DNA of 23,745 nucleotides from a virus (lineage: Duplodnaviria > Heunggongvirae > Uroviricota > Caudoviricetes): the IMG/VR virus record IMGVR_UViG_3300027776_000001, positions 1-23,745 of that record; one strand, given 5' to 3'. A model generated the notes under the pieces. It saw only the letters and a list, made by a program, of their open reading frames with translations. It was not told where the DNA came from and did not search any database. Every line of letters starts with the position of its first letter. Within the stretch, counting starts at the first letter, position 1. The translations under genes and the position numbers were made by a program. This document shows positions 447 to 10,362 of this stretch, in pieces.

Positions 447-2023
447 ATGGTTTTTACATCGACTTAGAATCAGATAATCTTTATCTTCAGTCTACTAAGA
501 TTTGGTACATGAAACTCACTAGCCTTGATGGCTCACGGTCAATGCAGATTTGGCCTTTTCGTGAAAACCCAGACGATGTAGCACAAAAACTCGATAAATG
601 GGTTGCTAGCTTTACGGATGGTTGTTTTGTTGTGGGGCACGGTATTTTAGGGTATGATACATGGATGCTGTGGAAGTTTTATGGTATTCAACCAAAGGTC
701 GGGAAGAAGGGTAAGGATTGGTTAGGTGATAAGCATGTACAATTTATTGATACTCTGGTACTTTCGCAGTATCTTCAGCCAGATGTTGGTGGACACTCTC
801 TCGAATATCTTTCAGAAGGTAACGAGGAAGAGAAGCTAAAGTATCGGGAGAAACTGGTAGAAGCTGGAGCAATGGCGGGCAATGAGCCTAAAGGCTATGA
901 GTTCTCCTTCTATCATGATCTGATGGTGGAGTACTGTGATCAGGACGTAGCAGCAGGTATTGGAGTCTTCCACGACCTGTGGGGGAAGGCTGAGGAAATG
1001 TACAAGAACAATTGGATTCACAAATCCTACAATCAAGTACAGAAGGACTTCTTCCTTTATGCTGCTCAGTCATTCACTGGTGTTAAGTTTGATCAACAGA
1101 AAGCTATTGCTCTGGCAGAATCGATTGAGAAGATGATGGAAGAGATTAAGGCTGAAGTTGATCCTATCTTGCCACCACGGAAGCTGAAGAAAGCTGAAGA
1201 GGCGTTTTACAAGATTCCAGCCAAACCATTTACCAAGAATGGTGAGCATTCTGCTAATATGCTGAAGTGGCTGGAGAAGCATAAAGCCACAGTGGAAGAA
1301 CGTACAATCTATGCTTATGGTCGTACATTCAACCTGATTGCTAATGAAGTGCTGGACATTAAGCTTCCGATGGAGATTGATGATAATGCTGAGCTGAAGG
1401 ATTACTTCTTAGAGTCTGGTTGGGTTCCTCACGATGACTTCTGGAACTTCAAGCGTGATGAAAGAGGTAAGCCAGCAAGGGATGATCGTGGTCAGATTAT
1501 CAAAACCACTCCGAAGATTCAACATGCTGGGCAGATTTGTCCTAACTTGCTGAAGCTTGAGGCTGATACGCCAAAGAAAGTTGTGAAGTATCTTTCATTG
1601 CGTAATCGTCTTAGTGTGATTCGTGGTTGGCTTGGTAATGAACGTTTGAAGTATGATGGTCGTTTGAGTGCGAATATCACAGGTTATACGCCTACTTTCC
1701 GCGTCAAACACTCTACAGTGGTGAATGTACCCAAGGCTGATCCTAAAGTCCTTTTGGGCAATGAAATGCGAGAGTTGTTCACTGTTGAAGAGGGGAATTT
1801 CTACATCGGTACAGATGCTGCTGCGTTGGAAAACAGAACGCTGGCGTCCTATACTATGAAGTACGATGGTGGTGAGTTTGCAGATCGTCTGCTTAAGGGT
1901 GATAGTCATAGCTTCAACGCTTTTGCTTTCTTCCCTGAAATCAAGACTAAGTTTGACATTAACGATCCAACGTTGAAGGATCAGACTGAGTTTAAGCCGT
2001 ATCGTAACAAGAGTAAGACGGGT
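443..2023 (+). CDS. polA: DNA polymerase, family A (T7 gp5-like), exon 1
   Basis: ExoI (IDLESD), ExoII (GHGILGYD), ExoIII (YCDQDV) and motif A (GTDAAALENR) are present. The exon ends mid-motif B (RNKSKTG), at GGT immediately before the intron's first triplet TAA (2024-2026). Confidence 0.95.
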
Positions 2024-2734
2024 TAACATAACAGCCCCATTAGATCGAGAGTTCTAATGAAAATTGTGTGAATTCAGGGGAACCCCTAACGTAAAGACGA
2101 GGGCAATCCTGAGCGAAGCTAGATACTCTACTAAACAAGAAGAGAGGTAAGATGTATAGTAGAGGAAGAAATAAAGGTCAGGAAGCCAAACCAATGACCG
2201 CTAAACCAGAGAAATATCCGCAAGGGTATTTTAATGATAAGCCGTGTAAGGAGTGTAGCGCTAAGTTTTCGCCACTAGCCCCGTCGCATCTTTATTGTAC
2301 AGATGCTTGTGCGAAGTTGGCCTTCACTCGAAAATACTTAAAGAAGCAGTACAAAATAACATATGAGTTTTACATGGAAATGTACAACAAGTATGGTGGA
2401 AAATGCCATATCTGTAAAAGTGTAGGTTTTAAGATTGACCCTAATCAAAAACTGAACTTAGCAGTGGATCATTGCCACGAGACAGGATTAGTCCGAGGAA
2501 TGCTTTGCCATAATTGCAACAGAGCACTAGGATTATTCCAAGACAACACTGAGTATTTACGAAACGCGGTAGAGTATCTAGAACGTGCAACGACTATCCT
2601 AAATGGAGTAGCCCCAAGTGGGGCGAAGCGCACAACATCCGAAGTGGATGATGATATAGTCTGAGCTTTATGGAAACATAAAGACGCAGGTAAAGCTGCT
2701 GGGAATGCTTAACGATCATTCTTGAACATATCTG
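2024..2734 (+). mobile_element. Group I self-splicing intron (IA2-like, with P7.1/P7.2) carrying a homing endonuclease in P6
   Basis: Pairings read from the sequence: P1 GGGU(2020-2023)/GCCC(2034-2037) with U.G at the 5' splice site; P2 CATTAGA/TCTAATG; P3 TTGTGTG(2064-2070)/CGCACAA(2629-2635); P4 TCAGG/CCTGA; P7 GACTA(2592-2596)/TAGTC(2657-2661). Also present are P7.1, P7.2 (GCCCC-AAGT-GGGGC), P8 (CATCC-GAAGT-GGATG), P9 with a GAAA loop, terminal G2734, and P10 ATAAC(2028-2032)/GTTAT(2736-2740). Splicing restores motif B in frame. Confidence 0.93.
2152..2664 (+). CDS. Intron-encoded homing endonuclease, endonuclease VII (His-Me finger) family
   Basis: It has CHIC...LAVDHCHETGLVRGMLCHNCNRALG and an N-terminal CxxC...C...C zinc motif. 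The RBS GAGAGG precedes ATG 2152, and the ORF lies within the intron. Confidence 0.9.
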   Translation: MYSRGRNKGQEAKPMTAKPEKYPQGYFNDKPCKECSAKFSPLAPSHLYCTDACAKLAFTRKYLKKQYKITYEFYMEMYNKYGGKCHICKSVGFKIDPNQKLNLAVDHCHETGLVRGMLCHNCNRALGLFQDNTEYLRNAVEYLERATTILNGVAPSGAKRTTSEVDDDIV

Positions 2735-4766: not shown

Positions 4767-5249
4767 ATGATACTTGAACTAGAAGAACCATTCAGAAGCA
4801 AATGGAGGAAGGGTTATATCAGAACTTCTGCCATTGATGGGCGAAGAAGAGTGGATTTGTTCAATTCCAACACGGACAGAACAACTATAAGCTATAGCCG
4901 TTATTTGGTTTCCGTTAAATTAAAACGGATTCTTGAAGAGTTTGAGGAAGTTGACCACATAGACGGAGATAGCTTGAATGATGATTTGAGTAATCTTCAG
5001 GTTCTATCTAAACCTCAACACTTGGCTAAGACTACCCAAGAGGTCAGGGTAGGCAGGTTGTGTGTTGTGTTGCAGTGCCCGGAATGCTCAGTTCTCTTTA
5101 CAAGAGAGGTGCGCAATTTAAAAGGTAAGCTTAGTTTTTGCAGCAAAACTTGCTCAACTAGATTTCACAAGACTGCAAGTGAAGTTGAGTTCAATGAAGC
5201 AGTAGGACTACAGATAGAAGCGAAAAAGCACCGAACAAGATCAAAATAA
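4767..5249 (+). CDS. HNH homing endonuclease with C-terminal zinc-finger-like motif
   Basis: EVDHIDGDSLNDDLSNLQVL HNH motif, followed by CPEC...FCSKTC. Confidence 0.88.
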   Translation: MILELEEPFRSKWRKGYIRTSAIDGRRRVDLFNSNTDRTTISYSRYLVSVKLKRILEEFEEVDHIDGDSLNDDLSNLQVLSKPQHLAKTTQEVRVGRLCVVLQCPECSVLFTREVRNLKGKLSFCSKTCSTRFHKTASEVEFNEAVGLQIEAKKHRTRSK

Positions 5250-5252
5250 AGC

Positions 5253-5281
5253 TTGACACAGAGAAAAATCTGTGATAGTAT
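5253..5281 (+). promoter_or_regulatory. sigma70 promoter (extended -10) upstream of the Y RNA array and Ro60
   Basis: TTGACA(5253-5258)-17 nt-TAGTAT(5276-5281) with TGn at 5273-5275 and an A-rich upstream tract. It shares AAAGCTTGACA with the 4479 promoter. Confidence 0.8.
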
Positions 5282-5305: not shown

Positions 5306-5371
5306 GGAATGTGTTGTGAAAAGGGTTACTTCTGGCATTGAAACTAACACCCTTCTCTTTGTTACCATTCC
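5306..5371 (+). ncRNA. Minimal Y-RNA-like unit 1 (class B)
   Basis: Closing stem GGAATG/CATTCC, internal loop TGTTGT...TTGTTAC, upper stem AAGGGT/ACCCTT and the shared GTTACTTC motif. It lies upstream of a Ro60 gene. Confidence 0.7.
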
Positions 5372-5379
5372 GCAAGTTA

Positions 5380-5519
5380 TGGACGTAGTGAATAGACAGT
5401 TACTTCACTTTTAATGACGAGGTCGTAGGTTCGAATCCTACCATGAATGATTCTTCGGAAAAGTTCGTGTAGCTTAGTTGGTAGAGCGCGATAATATCTG
5501 TCTAGTTTGTTCTCGTCCA
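5380..5519 (+). ncRNA. yrlA: YrlA-type Y RNA with circularly permuted tRNA-like domain (unit 2, class A)
   Basis: Closing stem TGGACG/CGTCCA, TAGTGA...TTGTTCT internal loop, stem TAGACAG/CTGTCTA and GTTACTTC. These enclose a T arm (GTAGG-TTCGAAT-CCTAC), an acceptor-like stem (CATGAA/TTCGTG) and a D arm (TAGCTTAGTTGGTAGAGC), in the order T, acceptor, D. Confidence 0.88.
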
Positions 5520-5526
5520 GTTATTC

Positions 5527-5598
5527 GGCAGTAGTGAAGCAGGCGGTTACTTCTTTCTTTTTGCGAAAACCAACGATCCGCCTCAGTTGTTCTCTGCC
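5527..5598 (+). ncRNA. Minimal Y-RNA-like unit 3 (class A)
   Basis: Closing stem GGCAG/CTGCC, TAGTGA...TTGTTCT internal loop as in unit 2, upper stem AGGCGG/CCGCCT, GTTACTTC motif. Confidence 0.72.
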
Positions 5599-5606
5599 TC
5601 TAATTT

Positions 5607-5674
5607 GTAGAGTGTTGTTTGTTAGGGTTACTTCTATTGGATGAAACTTACACCCTAACTCTTGTTACCTCTAC
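5607..5674 (+). ncRNA. Minimal Y-RNA-like unit 4 (class B)
   Basis: Closing stem GTAGAG/CTCTAC, TGTTGT...TTGTTAC internal loop, upper stem TTAGGGT/ACCCTAA, GTTACTTC. It shares AGGGTTACTTCT..GAAACTnACACCCT with unit 1. Confidence 0.72.
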
Positions 5675-5699: not shown

Positions 5700-7073
5700 A
5701 TGTCATCACTGAATAAGCGCACCAAGCAAGTCCCTACCGAAGTTAACGAAGTAGGTACTCCAGTCTTCAAGATCAACGCCAAGCAAGAACTTCAGCGTCT
5801 CACTTTTGCCTATCTTCTGTTTGAAGATCAGTTCTACATTGATGGCAAGCGCAGTGCTGACAAATTGATCGAAGCTGTTGGCAAAGTATCTCCTCAGTTC
5901 GCACAACAAGTTGCCATAGAAGCACGTACTAAGTACAAGCTGCGCCATGTTCCTCTGCTTATCACTGCTGCTCTGATCAAGAACGGTACTGCCACTGTGG
6001 ACGGTATCGCTGAAGTTATTCAGCGTGCTGATGAAATGGGTGAGCTGTTGGCGATTTACAATCGTGACGGTAAGCGCCCTCTGGCTAACAAGCTGAAGAA
6101 AGGTATTGCCAAGGCTTTCCTGAAGTTCAATGAATTTCAGCTTGCCAAGAATGACAAGAATAGCGCAGCATACTCTATTCGTGATGTGATGTTCCTCACC
6201 CATCCGAAGCCAACTAATAAGGAACAAGCTGACTTGTTCAAGCGAATTGCTGATCAAGATATGTTTGTACCTGAGACTTGGGAAACTGAGTTGTCTGCTG
6301 GTGCTGATAAGAAGGTTACTTTTGAATACCTGATGGCTAACAATAAAATGGGTGCCTTGGCTTTCTTGCGTAACCTTCGCAATATGTCTCAAGCTGGTGT
6401 AGATCGTGCCTTGATTCGCACATACGGTAAGTCTGTCAACGTTGATAAGGTGTTGCCATACCAGTTTATTACTGCACAAAAGTATGCTCCAGAGTTTACG
6501 GACATGCTTGAGCAAATGATGTTCAAGGCTTTGGAAAATATCCCTAAGCTTCCGGGCCGCACTGTTCTTGTGGTTGATACTAGTGGCTCTATGGGTGCTA
6601 GCGTTTCCAGCAGGTCTGAGCTTACTCGTTTGCAAGCTGCTGCAGCAATTACTATCCTAGCACGAGAAATCTGTGAAGAGGTGGTCATATATGCAACGGC
6701 AGGCGATGACAGGTACCGGAAACATGCAACGATGTTGATTCCCTCTTACCGTGGTTTTGCTCTTGCTGATTTCATCACTGGTACGAAGGTTTCTATGCAA
6801 ATTGGTGGTGGTGGTATCTTCCTGCTTCAGTGCATGGATTATATTGCCAATGAAGAAAAGGATGATGTGGTTGATCGTGTGATTGTTTTCACTGATGAGC
6901 AAGACACTGGCGGACGAGGATTTGAGCCCCACAATGCCAAGCGTCTAGGTAAGACAAACTACATCTTGAATGTAGGTGCTTATCAGAATGGTGTTAACCA
7001 CAAGGATTGGACTACTGTAACTGGTTTCTCTGAAGCAACTCTGGCATATATTGCAGCTTTGGAAGGTAACTAA
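5700..7073 (+). CDS. rsr: Ro60/Rsr-like TROVE + vWA domain RNA-binding protein
   Basis: TROVE-type segments LRHVPLL, IQRADEMGELLAIY, IRDVMFLTHPKP, PETWETELS and ALAFLRNLRNM. vWA MIDAS VDTSGSM and VIVFTDEQ. RBS AGGAGA. Adjacent Y RNAs support the call. Confidence 0.93.
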   Translation: MSSLNKRTKQVPTEVNEVGTPVFKINAKQELQRLTFAYLLFEDQFYIDGKRSADKLIEAVGKVSPQFAQQVAIEARTKYKLRHVPLLITAALIKNGTATVDGIAEVIQRADEMGELLAIYNRDGKRPLANKLKKGIAKAFLKFNEFQLAKNDKNSAAYSIRDVMFLTHPKPTNKEQADLFKRIADQDMFVPETWETELSAGADKKVTFEYLMANNKMGALAFLRNLRNMSQAGVDRALIRTYGKSVNVDKVLPYQFITAQKYAPEFTDMLEQMMFKALENIPKLPGRTVLVVDTSGSMGASVSSRSELTRLQAAAAITILAREICEEVVIYATAGDDRYRKHATMLIPSYRGFALADFITGTKVSMQIGGGGIFLLQCMDYIANEEKDDVVDRVIVFTDEQDTGGRGFEPHNAKRLGKTNYILNVGAYQNGVNHKDWTTVTGFSEATLAYIAALEGN

Positions 7074-8231: not shown

Positions 8232-8261
8232 AGCCCTGTCCCGAAAGGGGCGGGGCTTTTT
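8232..8261 (+). terminator. Rho-independent terminator
   Basis: AGCCCTGTCCC-GAAA-GGGGCGGGGCT hairpin followed by a T run, just after the ssb stop. Confidence 0.88.
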
Positions 8262-8283
8262 GTTCTTCAGAATAGGAGATTTT

Positions 8284-8850
8284 ATGGACATAAGAGATTA
8301 TGTTGAATATTCACCTGACAGTCCTTCTGGATTGCTATGGAAAGTTGATAGACACGGCGGCAAGGATGGCAGGATTCTCGCGGCCAAGAAAGGGAGTGTT
8401 GCAGGGTCTAAAGGACAGTTACACTGGGAAGTCGGTGTAGACAAGGAGAAGTATTTAGTGCATAGGGTGGTTTGGTTTTTGCTACACAAGGAATGGCCTG
8501 CATTGCCTATTGACCATATTGATGGAGATGGGTTTAACAACAATCACACAAATCTTCGTCTTGCCACACATAAACAAAACATGTGCAATAGATGGATGAA
8601 TAAAAATAATACCTCTGGAATCACTGGTGTTTCAGAATTGAAAACAAACCAAGAACACCGTTTCATTGCCAGATGGCATGATATGAATGGCAGCCCTAAG
8701 AGTAAATCATTTTCAGTTAAGAAGTACGGCTACGATGAAGCAAGAAAGCTTGCAGAGGATTTTCGTAAGTCAGTAATTTCAGAATTAATTGAGCAAGGAA
8801 TTTACTCTAAGAGACATGGGAGTAGAAGAAATGAAGCAACTGATCTTTGA
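8284..8850 (+). CDS. HNH homing endonuclease with AP2-like domain
   Basis: ATG 8284 after AGGAG. Motifs YSPDSPSGLLW, HRVVW, IDHIDGDGFNNNHTNLR, NTSGITGV and KSFSVKKYGYDEA. Confidence 0.9.
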   Translation: MDIRDYVEYSPDSPSGLLWKVDRHGGKDGRILAAKKGSVAGSKGQLHWEVGVDKEKYLVHRVVWFLLHKEWPALPIDHIDGDGFNNNHTNLRLATHKQNMCNRWMNKNNTSGITGVSELKTNQEHRFIARWHDMNGSPKSKSFSVKKYGYDEARKLAEDFRKSVISELIEQGIYSKRHGSRRNEATDL

Positions 8851-9817
8851 TTTTGACGCTTTAAAATATGCTGGTTCTGCAGTGGGCGAAAAAAGAAGCA
8901 TTGTTGTAAGGCACCCTTCAGGAATAGAGGAACAATTCAGTACCAGAACGATGTTTCACGGACATTGGAGAAATAAAGATGGAGGTTGGTTAGCTGAATA
9001 CAACAAAGATAAATCCTCCCCTCTCCTTCCTGACGAATTTTCAATCACAGACGTACAAACTCCCGGCCCAGTAGAGAATGTGCTCCACACTATCAAGAGC
9101 ATGATCTATAAGGCTTGTGCCAAAACAGACATTGACGAATACGTAGGGTACATTGGTAAAGGCGATAGCTTTAGAGTGGAAATGTCCACACTCCTGAAGT
9201 ACAAAGGTCAACGAGCAGCAATGCTAAGACCTTTACATATTGAAGCTGTGGAAGAGTACCTGATCAAGCACCATGATGGAATAGTGGTGAGAAATCTAGA
9301 AGCTGACGACAAGATTGTGATGGAATGTTATGATCGTTCAGACCGTACAGCCGCCATCTTAGAAAAAGACTTCTACGGAATTCCTAAACTTAATCTTTAC
9401 AACACAGACTCCTATGAAAGCCTGTACACTGGCAATGGGTATGGTAAGCTCTACCTTGACGCCAAAGGAAAAGTGAAAGGCTACGGAAGAGCATTCTTCT
9501 ACTTCCAAGTATTGTCTGGTGACACTAGTGATAACTACAAGGCTAATTGCTTCTCAGATGTGAAGTGGGCAGACAAGAAAGCGTTTGCTATGTTAGCTGG
9601 GTGTAAGAATGATTCCGAAGCCTTGCAAGCTCTTGTTAAAGCCTACAAGATTCTCTATCCAGAACCTAAGACAGTGGTAGGATGGCGTGGTGATGAAATC
9701 AATATTGATTGGTTCTATGTACTGAATGAGAACTTCCAGTTAGCTAGACTGCTTAGATGGGATGATGATAAGGTGGACTTGAAGAAGGTATTAGAAAAGT
9801 CAGGAGTAGAGGTATGA
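8831..9817 (+). CDS. 5'-3' exonuclease / RNase H (T7 gp6-like)
   Basis: LIFDFDALKY, NLEADD, ILEKDFYG, YKGQR, GDTSDNY acidic catalytic motifs. Start assigned at ATG 8831 (ATG 8816 is an alternative). Confidence 0.82.
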   Translation: MKQLIFDFDALKYAGSAVGEKRSIVVRHPSGIEEQFSTRTMFHGHWRNKDGGWLAEYNKDKSSPLLPDEFSITDVQTPGPVENVLHTIKSMIYKACAKTDIDEYVGYIGKGDSFRVEMSTLLKYKGQRAAMLRPLHIEAVEEYLIKHHDGIVVRNLEADDKIVMECYDRSDRTAAILEKDFYGIPKLNLYNTDSYESLYTGNGYGKLYLDAKGKVKGYGRAFFYFQVLSGDTSDNYKANCFSDVKWADKKAFAMLAGCKNDSEALQALVKAYKILYPEPKTVVGWRGDEINIDWFYVLNENFQLARLLRWDDDKVDLKKVLEKSGVEV

Positions 9818-10362
9818 CAAAATTCCCTGAATATTGGAAGCTTTACCCGGAAATTTGGCCTACAAAGGCCTCATTCTTTGTGTGGATGCGTGGAGCATTC
9901 AGACGAGCTTTATGGGAAAAATGGCCCGTAAAAATCCAACATAAAAACAGGATGTGTACGGTTCCTCCAAGAGGTAAAGAGACAAGAGCTAAGACAGGTA
10001 CATACTGTGCATTGTCTGGTAAATGGTACGGGAAGTCAGCATTAGAAGTAGACCACATTGAGGGGAATGCCTCTCTTCGAGACTTTGAAGATATTGTTCC
10101 ATTCATTCGTCACTTACTTGCACTTGACGAAGAATTGCAACTTGTAGGAAAAGAGGAACACAAGGCTAAGTCTTATGCAGAAAGACAAGGACTAACCTTC
10201 GAGGAAGCTGTAATCGAGAAAGAGGTAATCAAATTCAAGAAGACTTCTACAGAAGCTCAGAAGGAATACCTACGAACTTTAGGCTGTGGAGATATTATTC
10301 TCAGGAATGCCACAACTAGAGCAGATGCATTTAGAGAGTACTTAACGAAGGGAAGTGTATGA
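9814..10362 (+). CDS. HNH-like nuclease, probably a core replication/recombination gene
   Basis: YCALSGKW...LEVDHIEG motif. Coupled to both neighbours by ATGA overlaps, and lacks the AP2/NUMOD tails of the mobile HNH genes. Confidence 0.6.
   Translation: MTKFPEYWKLYPEIWPTKASFFVWMRGAFRRALWEKWPVKIQHKNRMCTVPPRGKETRAKTGTYCALSGKWYGKSALEVDHIEGNASLRDFEDIVPFIRHLLALDEELQLVGKEEHKAKSYAERQGLTFEEAVIEKEVIKFKKTSTEAQKEYLRTLGCGDIILRNATTRADAFREYLTKGSV

What the first reader, a model, noticed from the sequence alone, without database searches (positions are those of the whole stretch)
5400..5445. YrlA carries a tRNA-Lys(UUU) anticodon-loop mimic
Seen: just after GTTACTTC, the sequence TCA-CTTTTAA-TGA-CG-AGGTC-GTAGGTTCGAATCCTAC places a 7-nt CU-UUU-AA loop before a variable loop and T arm. 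This is the order and near-sequence of a tRNA-Lys(UUU) 3' half. No true tRNA-Lys is present in this window. Established: tRNA-Lys(UUU) is the target of the anticodon nucleases PrrC and PARIS AriB. Inference: the Ro60-bound RNA could be a decoy or sensor for host anticodon nucleases, or recruit U34/A37 modification enzymes. It cannot be aminoacylated because the acceptor-like stem is closed by a loop.
Basis: partly seen in the sequence, partly recalled or inferred. Interest (0 to 1): 0.75.

Follow-up and report, generated by a model that had tools for sequence, protein, structure and literature searches.

The report
Y RNA displaying a swappable anticodon
A phage small RNA beside an Ro60 gene is a whole tRNA written in rearranged order, with a true anticodon loop; in relatives from phages and bacteria the anticodon changes much faster than the rest of the RNA, as expected of bait for proteins that attack tRNA anticodons, though that function is untested.

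Summary
The loop is real, but the lysine identity is not conserved. Window 5405-5490 holds all 72 tRNA positions in permuted order, opened between nt 28 and 29, where the presumed Ro60-binding helix joins. Put back in order, ARAGORN calls it tRNA-Lys(UUU). The anticodon stem has five pairs, not three: two come from bases after the D arm, and they covary.

I found 226 such RNAs in phages and bacteria, nearly all beside Ro60. They carry 42 anticodons; UUU is 17 of 226, and none of the 7 nearest relatives has it. Near-identical bodies often differ in anticodon (18/26 pairs; real tRNAs 0/53). Positions 32 and 37 follow tRNA rules; acceptor identity does not. So selection acts on displaying an authentic anticodon arm, not on decoding.

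Two founding YrlAs (phage ET08; M. smegmatis, from a primer only) have the same arm, apparently the published 'V arm', although YrlA is said to lack the loop. Best reading: an Ro60-held decoy or inhibitor of anticodon-arm nucleases or toxins (about 0.5). A PrrC or AriB target is unsupported. This scan found similar anticodon displays before on other DNA.

The parts
5253..5281 (+). Sigma70-type promoter-like site (TTGACA-17-TAGTAT, extended -10) upstream of the four-handle array and Ro60
   Evidence: consensus match only
5380..5522 (+). YrlA-type Y RNA gene: handle plus complete permuted tRNA; ends approximate
   Evidence: RF02553 35.9 bits, E 1.3e-4; terminal helices 5380-5385/5514-5519 and 5393-5399/5498-5504
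5380..5404 (+). 5' strand of the presumed Ro60-binding handle, with GTTACTT (contains the YUAY of YrlA)
   Evidence: motif conserved in 226 relatives; binding to Ro60 is inferred
5405..5419 (+). tRNA nt 29-43: lower anticodon stem UCA/UGA, loop CU-UUU-AA (anticodon 5410-5412), C42 and G43
5420..5441 (+). Variable loop (nt 44-48) and T arm (nt 49-65)
5442..5469 (+). 7-bp acceptor stem (5442-5448 = nt 66-72; 5463-5469 = nt 1-7), closed by a 14-nt linker with a UUCG hairpin; no encoded CCA
5470..5490 (+). nt 8-28: D arm, G26, and C27/G28, which pair with G43/C42; the break lies between 5490 (nt 28) and 5405 (nt 29)
   Evidence: covariation 27-43 MI 0.91 and 28-42 MI 1.53, null maximum about 0.15; 36 of 36 rows paired
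5491..5522 (+). Linker and 3' strand of the handle
   Evidence: complement of the handle 3-mer after the D arm in 101 of 124 relatives
5306..5370 (+). Sister handle RNA 1 with a short payload (GTTACTTC at 5325); ends approximate
5526..5600 (+). Sister handle RNA 3 (GTTACTTC at 5546); ends approximate
5608..5674 (+). Sister handle RNA 4 (GTTACTTC at 5627); ends approximate
5700..7073 (+). Ro60/Rsr gene (TROVE + vWA, 457 aa)
   Evidence: PF05731 E 1.6e-12, VWA_2; phrog_850; PDB 9KOP, the Thermus phage Ro60, E 2.9e-15

Best explanation
The RNA is a YrlA-type Y RNA whose payload is a complete tRNA, circularly permuted at nt 28/29. Steps: (1) it is transcribed with three sister handle RNAs and Ro60 (inferred from the promoter-like site and gene order). 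(2) Ro60 clamps the paired ends and protects them (inferred from known Rsr-Y RNA complexes and from co-occurrence). (3) The payload folds as a full L-shaped tRNA with a 5-bp anticodon stem and a 7-nt loop (shown by covariation, not by probing). (4) It is not a decoding tRNA (shown indirectly: acceptor identity is uncoupled from the anticodon). (5) It binds, as decoy or competitive inhibitor, proteins that attack particular tRNAs through the anticodon arm (defence nucleases, tRNase toxins, anticodon-modifying toxins), and the anticodon switches as the attackers change (inferred). In this phage the bait is Lys(UUU); the target enzyme is unknown.
For: Structure: 224 of 226 un-permuted elements are called tRNA by ARAGORN, against 27 in native order. 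The break is fixed at 28/29. Selection on the loop: N37 follows N36 (G36-G37 24 of 27, U36-A37 78 of 80; MI 0.53, null maximum 0.13) and N32 follows the anticodon (p 0.003), while N69-N73 sit at null, unlike real tRNAs. Fast switching: 18 of 26 near-identical pairs (7 of 12 clusters) differ in anticodon, against 0 of 53 pairs of real tRNAs. The arms are not copies of the locus's own tRNA (6-13 of 17 identical). Arrays with 2-4 anticodons occur in 19 loci. NNU is enriched: 34 of 52 against 337 of 963, p 2e-5. Ro60 lies in 71 of 75 loci with wide flanks, nearly always on the same strand; RtcB is in 13 loci and WYL regulators in others. In print: YrlA was proposed as a competitive inhibitor of an anticodon nuclease (PMC7790460); an Ro60-like gene of phage Bas63 counters the Ppl defence (PMC11482910).
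Against: No expression, binding or cleavage data were obtained. A cleavable decoy must outcompete a large tRNA pool. Many YrlAs lack the arm (Salmonella in print; L433), and 3 of the 7 nearest relatives have a degenerate arm or none, so it is dispensable. P2-OLD's CNG motif is not enriched (30 of 124 against 320 of 959) and is absent here. No RtcB or Rnl2-type ligase was found in this phage. Energy models do not favour the arm. The sets come from pattern searches and include related sequences.
Confidence: 0.5

Rival explanations
1. Sensor or gate: the loop is meant to be cut. Cleavage by an anticodon nuclease changes the Ro60 particle, freeing the cavity or recruiting PNPase or RtcB, and triggers RNA repair or decay.
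For: Y RNAs gate and tether Rsr (PMC4201824). tRNA halves induce the rsr-yrlBA-rtcBA operon (PMC7790460). RtcB and WYL genes are neighbours. It predicts the same loop authenticity and switching.
Against: This phage has no ligase that I could detect. Bare anticodon hairpins on the same handle look more like bait than like a switch.
Confidence: 0.17
2. Adaptor or sponge for housekeeping anticodon readers (synthetases, t6A and m1G37 enzymes, T-box RNAs, ribosome), tethering them to Ro60 or PNPase or tuning translation.
For: Anticodons ending in U or G dominate (47 of 52), the classes that carry t6A37 and m1G37 (established knowledge). Salmonella YrlA is modified by TruB and DusA (PMC4201824).
Against: Housekeeping targets are stable and do not explain switching between near-identical bodies. 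Ser and Leu anticodons are common (42 elements), although those synthetases largely ignore the anticodon (own knowledge).
Confidence: 0.13
3. Permuted tRNA gene: processed (RNase P, CCA addition, removal of the handle, ligation at 28/29) into a working tRNA-Lys that replaces the missing gene.
For: All 72 positions are present and the acceptor stem is 7 bp. The genome has no tRNA-Lys. M. smegmatis YrlA is cut by RNase P and gains CCA. 19 of 226 encode NCCA. Permuted tRNA genes exist in algae and archaea (10.1101/312249).
Against: Discriminator and acceptor pairs do not track the anticodon, so switching would misdecode. 42 Ser/Leu-anticodon mimics have short variable loops. Most acceptor loops are 2-8 nt. 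Mimics coexist with true tRNAs of the same anticodon.
Confidence: 0.07
4. Neutral relic of the dimeric-tRNA origin of YrlA; only the elbow matters, and the loop drifts.
For: The dimeric-tRNA origin model. The arm is often lost. A tolerated loop would vary at the anticodon.
Against: Drift would not keep a 7-nt loop, U33, compensated stem pairs and coupled changes at 36/37 (for example UUU-AA and UUG-GA on one body, L017 and L103).
Confidence: 0.08

Closest known systems
YrlA Y RNAs (Rfam RF02553; Chen et al. 2014, PMC4201824; structure Wang et al. 2018, 10.1101/312249)
   Same: Order T arm, closed acceptor stem, D arm; paired ends; YUAY before the payload; next to Ro60 on the same strand. Founding member ET08 scores 37.4 bits, like this RNA's 35.9.
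   Different: The papers say YrlA lacks the anticodon loop and name a hairpin upstream of the T arm 'V' (variable arm). Here, in ET08 (AU-UGA-AA) and in the M. smegmatis primer (CU-UCU-AA) the hairpin at that place is an in-register anticodon arm. The GNCGAAN0-1G motif is not met (4 of 226). The Rfam model has no such arm.
Circularly permuted tRNA genes of algae and archaea (as cited in 10.1101/312249)
   Same: Whole tRNA in permuted order with a closed acceptor loop
   Different: Those are processed into decoding tRNAs. Here the ends form a handle helix and acceptor identity is uncoupled from the anticodon.
Phage tRNAs that evade PARIS AriB or P2-OLD (PMC12409363, PMC12445682)
   Same: Same tRNA classes are prominent (Thr UGU, Asn GUU, Lys UUU). 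The break at 28/29 coincides with P2-OLD Site 1.
   Different: Those are working, resistant tRNAs. This one is a presumed protein-bound mimic, and it lacks OLD's CNG motif and AriB's C40.
Thermus phage phiLo Ro60 with Yrl1/Yrl2 (PMC12135203; PDB 9KOP)
   Same: Phage Ro60 with upstream partner RNAs
   Different: About 25% protein identity; CGAA motif; no tRNA or anticodon payload described.

Membership tests
YrlA (RF02553) | T arm 5' of the D arm, with an acceptor-like stem-loop between them | tested here: met
YrlA (RF02553) | tRNA tertiary-contact bases (U8-A14, G15-C48, G18/G19, T loop) | tested here: met
   G5477-C5424; 15-48 MI 0.84 in the family
YrlA (RF02553) | Within 4 kb of Ro60, same strand | tested here: met
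   178 bp upstream; family 71 of 75 wide loci
YrlA (RF02553) | 5' and 3' ends pair into a long stem | tested here: met
   (prediction and complementarity)
YrlA (RF02553) | GNCGAAN0-1G Ro-binding motif | tested here: not met
   window has AGUGAAUAG; 4 of 226 relatives match; so a variant handle, not the canonical one
YrlA (RF02553) | Rfam gathering score of 69 bits | tested here: not met
   35.9 bits; founding member ET08 also fails at 37.4, so this is weak as an exclusion
YrlA (RF02553) | No anticodon loop (as published for Salmonella) | tested here: not met
   loop present here, in ET08 and in the 85-bit canonical member L434
YrlA (RF02553) | Bound by Ro60/Rsr in vivo; D and pseudouridine modification | not testable with these tools
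Functional tRNA-Lys (permuted gene) | All cloverleaf positions present | tested here: met
   ARAGORN tRNA-Lys(ttt) after un-permuting
Functional tRNA-Lys (permuted gene) | Acceptor identity matches the anticodon | tested here: not met
   family MI at null for N69-N73; window G1-U72 wobble, G73, no CCA
Functional tRNA-Lys (permuted gene) | Processing, ligation and aminoacylation | not testable with these tools
   no reads; no ligase or CCA enzyme found in the genome (118 had no positive control)
AriB substrate | U36AAUC|A41 site | tested here: inconclusive
   UAAU is present, but nt 40 is G
P2-OLD substrate | Paired CNG at 28-30 and 40-42, A37 | tested here: not met
   A37 present; GUC/GAC in place of CNG; not enriched in the family

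The most novel reading that the evidence does not exclude
Ro60 particles of phages and bacteria carry a diversifying library of whole-tRNA decoys. Each RNA is a tRNA opened exactly at 28/29, the first cut site of OLD-type nucleases, and acts as a poorly cleavable inhibitor of anticodon-arm nucleases and toxins, with specificity reprogrammed by changing three bases. The YrlA 'V arm' is this anticodon arm.
Probability: 0.3. Interest if true: 0.9.

Novelty: new variant of a known kind. Interest (0 to 1): 0.72.

Why it matters
The role of YrlA's tRNA domain has been open since 2014. An authentic, fast-switching anticodon makes it directly testable: change three bases and look for a matched change in partner or protection. 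It also appears to correct the published anatomy, since the 'V arm' of founding YrlAs is in register as an anticodon arm. M. smegmatis YrlA, which gains CCA in vivo, would then be nearly a whole two-piece tRNA with a UCU anticodon. If the decoy reading holds, it is an RNA-based counter-defence, and the anticodon census points to which tRNAs are attacked.

Tried and rejected
Lys(UUU) conservation: rejected. Replacement of a missing tRNA: rejected as a family rule; 11 of 32 coexist with the cognate tRNA in partial loci. Copying of the arm from the locus's own tRNA: rejected. A break at 27/28 or 29/30: rejected. An OLD-specific CNG motif: not enriched. Single-sequence folding and RNAalifold do not recover the arm. 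Rows of alignment A1 were pre-selected for the hairpin, so only its cross-break helix is an independent test. The canonical GAATGC-handle pattern with a loop found 0 viral contigs. M. smegmatis YrlA was not found in a sample of 401 genomes, so it rests on the primer alone. Two reviews were not held, and the figures and supplements of Chen 2014 could not be seen, so an earlier remark on this loop cannot be excluded. No close cultured phage was found; the host is unknown. Scans constrain the loop, so frequencies rest plus the loci fetched through Ro60.

Full report
OBSERVATION. The sequence at 5400-5445 is as reported. It lies in a YrlA-like RNA (5380-5522; 35.9 bits, E 1.3e-4), 178 bp upstream of a TROVE + vWA gene (5700-7073). 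The source is a complete 87.7-kb phage genome with 12 tRNA genes and none for Lys. Four copies of the GTTACTTC handle lie between a promoter-like site and Ro60. Only the second has a tRNA payload.

ANATOMY. In tRNA numbering, 5405-5448 is nt 29-72, 5449-5462 is a linker that closes the acceptor stem, and 5463-5490 is nt 1-28. Joined in order, the 72 bases are called tRNA-Lys(ttt) by ARAGORN. Two more, 27-43 and 28-42, come from the bases after the D arm. The RNA is thus a whole tRNA opened at 28/29, with the handle helix branching from there.

FAMILY. BLASTN found the same layout with a GUU loop in Xanthomonas phages. Pattern scans of viral contigs and bacterial genomes, plus loci fetched through Ro60, gave 484 unique handle + T-arm elements. 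Of these, 256 have acceptor and D arms at a suitable spacing, and 226 have the anticodon arm (122 viral or metagenomic, 104 from bacterial genomes). Ro60 lies in 34 of 36 viral and 37 of 39 bacterial loci with wide flanks. RtcB occurs in 13 loci and WYL regulators in others.

IS IT CHANCE? In the set collected without a loop constraint, 44 of 72 elements have three pairs, U33 and purine 37; shuffles give a mean of 0.6 and a maximum of 5. On 124 dereplicated bodies, 27-43 is paired in 118 (MI 0.91) and 28-42 in 119 (MI 1.53), with null maxima near 0.15. The bases 5' of nt 29 do not covary with 42 or 43 (MI 0.05 and 0.02), which fixes the break. An independent MAFFT alignment gives 36 of 36 rows paired at both cross-break pairs, with 18 and 7 double changes. 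After un-permuting, 224 of 226 are called tRNA, against 27 in native order. Energy models miss the arm, so it rests on comparison and not on folding energy.

WHAT IS CONSERVED. UUU is not. There are 42 anticodons and UUU is 17 of 226. The unbiased set is led by UGU 9, GUU 8, UGG 5 and GCU 5, with UUU at 3 of 52. The seven nearest Ro60 relatives examined (61-65% identity) carry UCU, GUU, a GUU-like loop, GCU, or degenerate or no arms. Bodies that differ at 2 or fewer of 50 positions have different anticodons in 18 of 26 pairs (7 of 12 clusters); real tRNAs do so in 0 of 53 pairs. The loop stays authentic: A37 after U36, G37 after G36, and N32 follows the anticodon. The discriminator and acceptor pairs carry no anticodon information, while real tRNAs show a strong signal (N73 MI 0.24 against 1.13; null about 0.2). 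NNU is enriched (p 2e-5), and NNA and NNC are depleted (p 8e-8); relatedness among sequences makes these p values too small. The arms are not copied from the locus's own tRNA, and 11 of 32 coexist with it.

MECHANISM. Shown by sequence: a full tRNA shape, an authentic loop, fast switching, no charging identity, and tight linkage to Ro60. Inferred: Ro60 binding, expression, and a partner that reads the anticodon arm and changes often. Defence nucleases and tRNA toxins fit best. The six tRNAs listed as probable AriB cleavage products (PMC12409363) make up 28 of 52 unbiased mimics against 183 of 963 real tRNAs; this comparison was made after seeing the data. The break coincides with P2-OLD Site 1, between nt 28 and 29 (PMC12445682), but OLD's CNG motif is not enriched, so this may be coincidence. 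I put decoy or inhibitor at 0.5, sensor at 0.17, housekeeping adaptor at 0.13, relic at 0.08 and processed tRNA at 0.07. For this copy nothing singles out PrrC or AriB, and nt 40 differs from AriB's best site.

COMPARISON WITH WHAT IS KNOWN. It works like YrlA and meets its structural and genomic features. It does not meet the GNCGAA motif or the Rfam cut-off; the founding member ET08 also misses the cut-off. Wang 2018 states that YrlA lacks the anticodon loop. Chen 2014 notes a fourth hairpin upstream of the T arm in many YrlAs and treats it as the variable arm. In ET08, one of their seven aligned RNAs, the hairpin at that place is CUC-AU-UGA-AA-GAG-AG, with CU after the D arm, the same architecture. 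Their M. smegmatis primer reads CA-CU-UCU-AA-UGGAA-UGGUC, in register. A canonical 85-bit YrlA also has a UCU arm, while a 92-bit one has none. I could not see their figures, so equating 'V' with this arm is a strong inference and not a direct reading. The idea of YrlA as a nuclease inhibitor is in print as speculation.

NOVELTY. New variant of a known kind, with an apparent re-reading of published anatomy. I found no paper describing the anticodon arm, the 28/29 break or the switching (open-access library only). This scan has noted the handle family and anticodon displays on other genomes. My results were obtained separately and do not depend on those notes.

VERDICT. Observation confirmed and extended; interpretation partly supported; interest 0.72.

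Noticed in passing
window 5306-5370, 5526-5600, 5608-5674: Three more handle RNAs with short payloads (UUC/GAA hairpins with 7-8 nt loops). Relatives show a recurring AUUGG loop.
   Followed up: partly
L004:4484, L005:4486, L007:3776, L009:4486, L391:4035, L395:1687, L398:3804: The same handle carries a bare anticodon hairpin followed by ACCA (TAGA-CT-NNN-AA-TCTA-ACCA) with CUU, UGU, GCU, UUU, ACU or UCU: switching on a minimal scaffold.
   Followed up: partly
L110:2098(+), L176:8305(+), L042:3454(-): Another permutation: the handle stands in place of the acceptor stem, followed by D, anticodon and T arms.
   Followed up: no
L008:4596, L020:536(-); L043:1938, L065:9042: Handles carrying a T arm alone, or Ser-type arms with a long variable arm.
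   Followed up: no
L440:2178-3900 (Rapidithrix thailandica): Chromosomal array of at least 8 handle RNAs, partly duplicated, with GUC, UCG, GUU and UAG anticodons.
   Followed up: partly
L171, L113, L233, L095, L118, L109, L359: 19 of 226 mimics encode NCCA after nt 72; candidates for RNase P-processed two-piece forms.
   Followed up: partly
window 2014-2683: Group I intron (RF00028, 53 bits) with an endonuclease VII ORF (2152-2664), apparently interrupting a family A DNA polymerase gene.
   Followed up: no
window 4767-5249, 8260-8850, 9814-10362: Free-standing HNH endonuclease genes, one between tRNA-Arg and the Y RNA array.
   Followed up: no
L003:2721 and 2831, L007:4865, L008:6324: Acceptor-side loops often contain UGGU, the complement of tRNA ACCA ends; not tested against chance.
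   Followed up: no
G000 whole genome: In long ORFs AAG outnumbers AAA 737 to 312, and the phage has no tRNA-Lys gene.
   Followed up: no
L004, L007, L009: Permuted (two-piece) tmRNA of betaproteobacterial type in related Ro60 phage loci.
   Followed up: no
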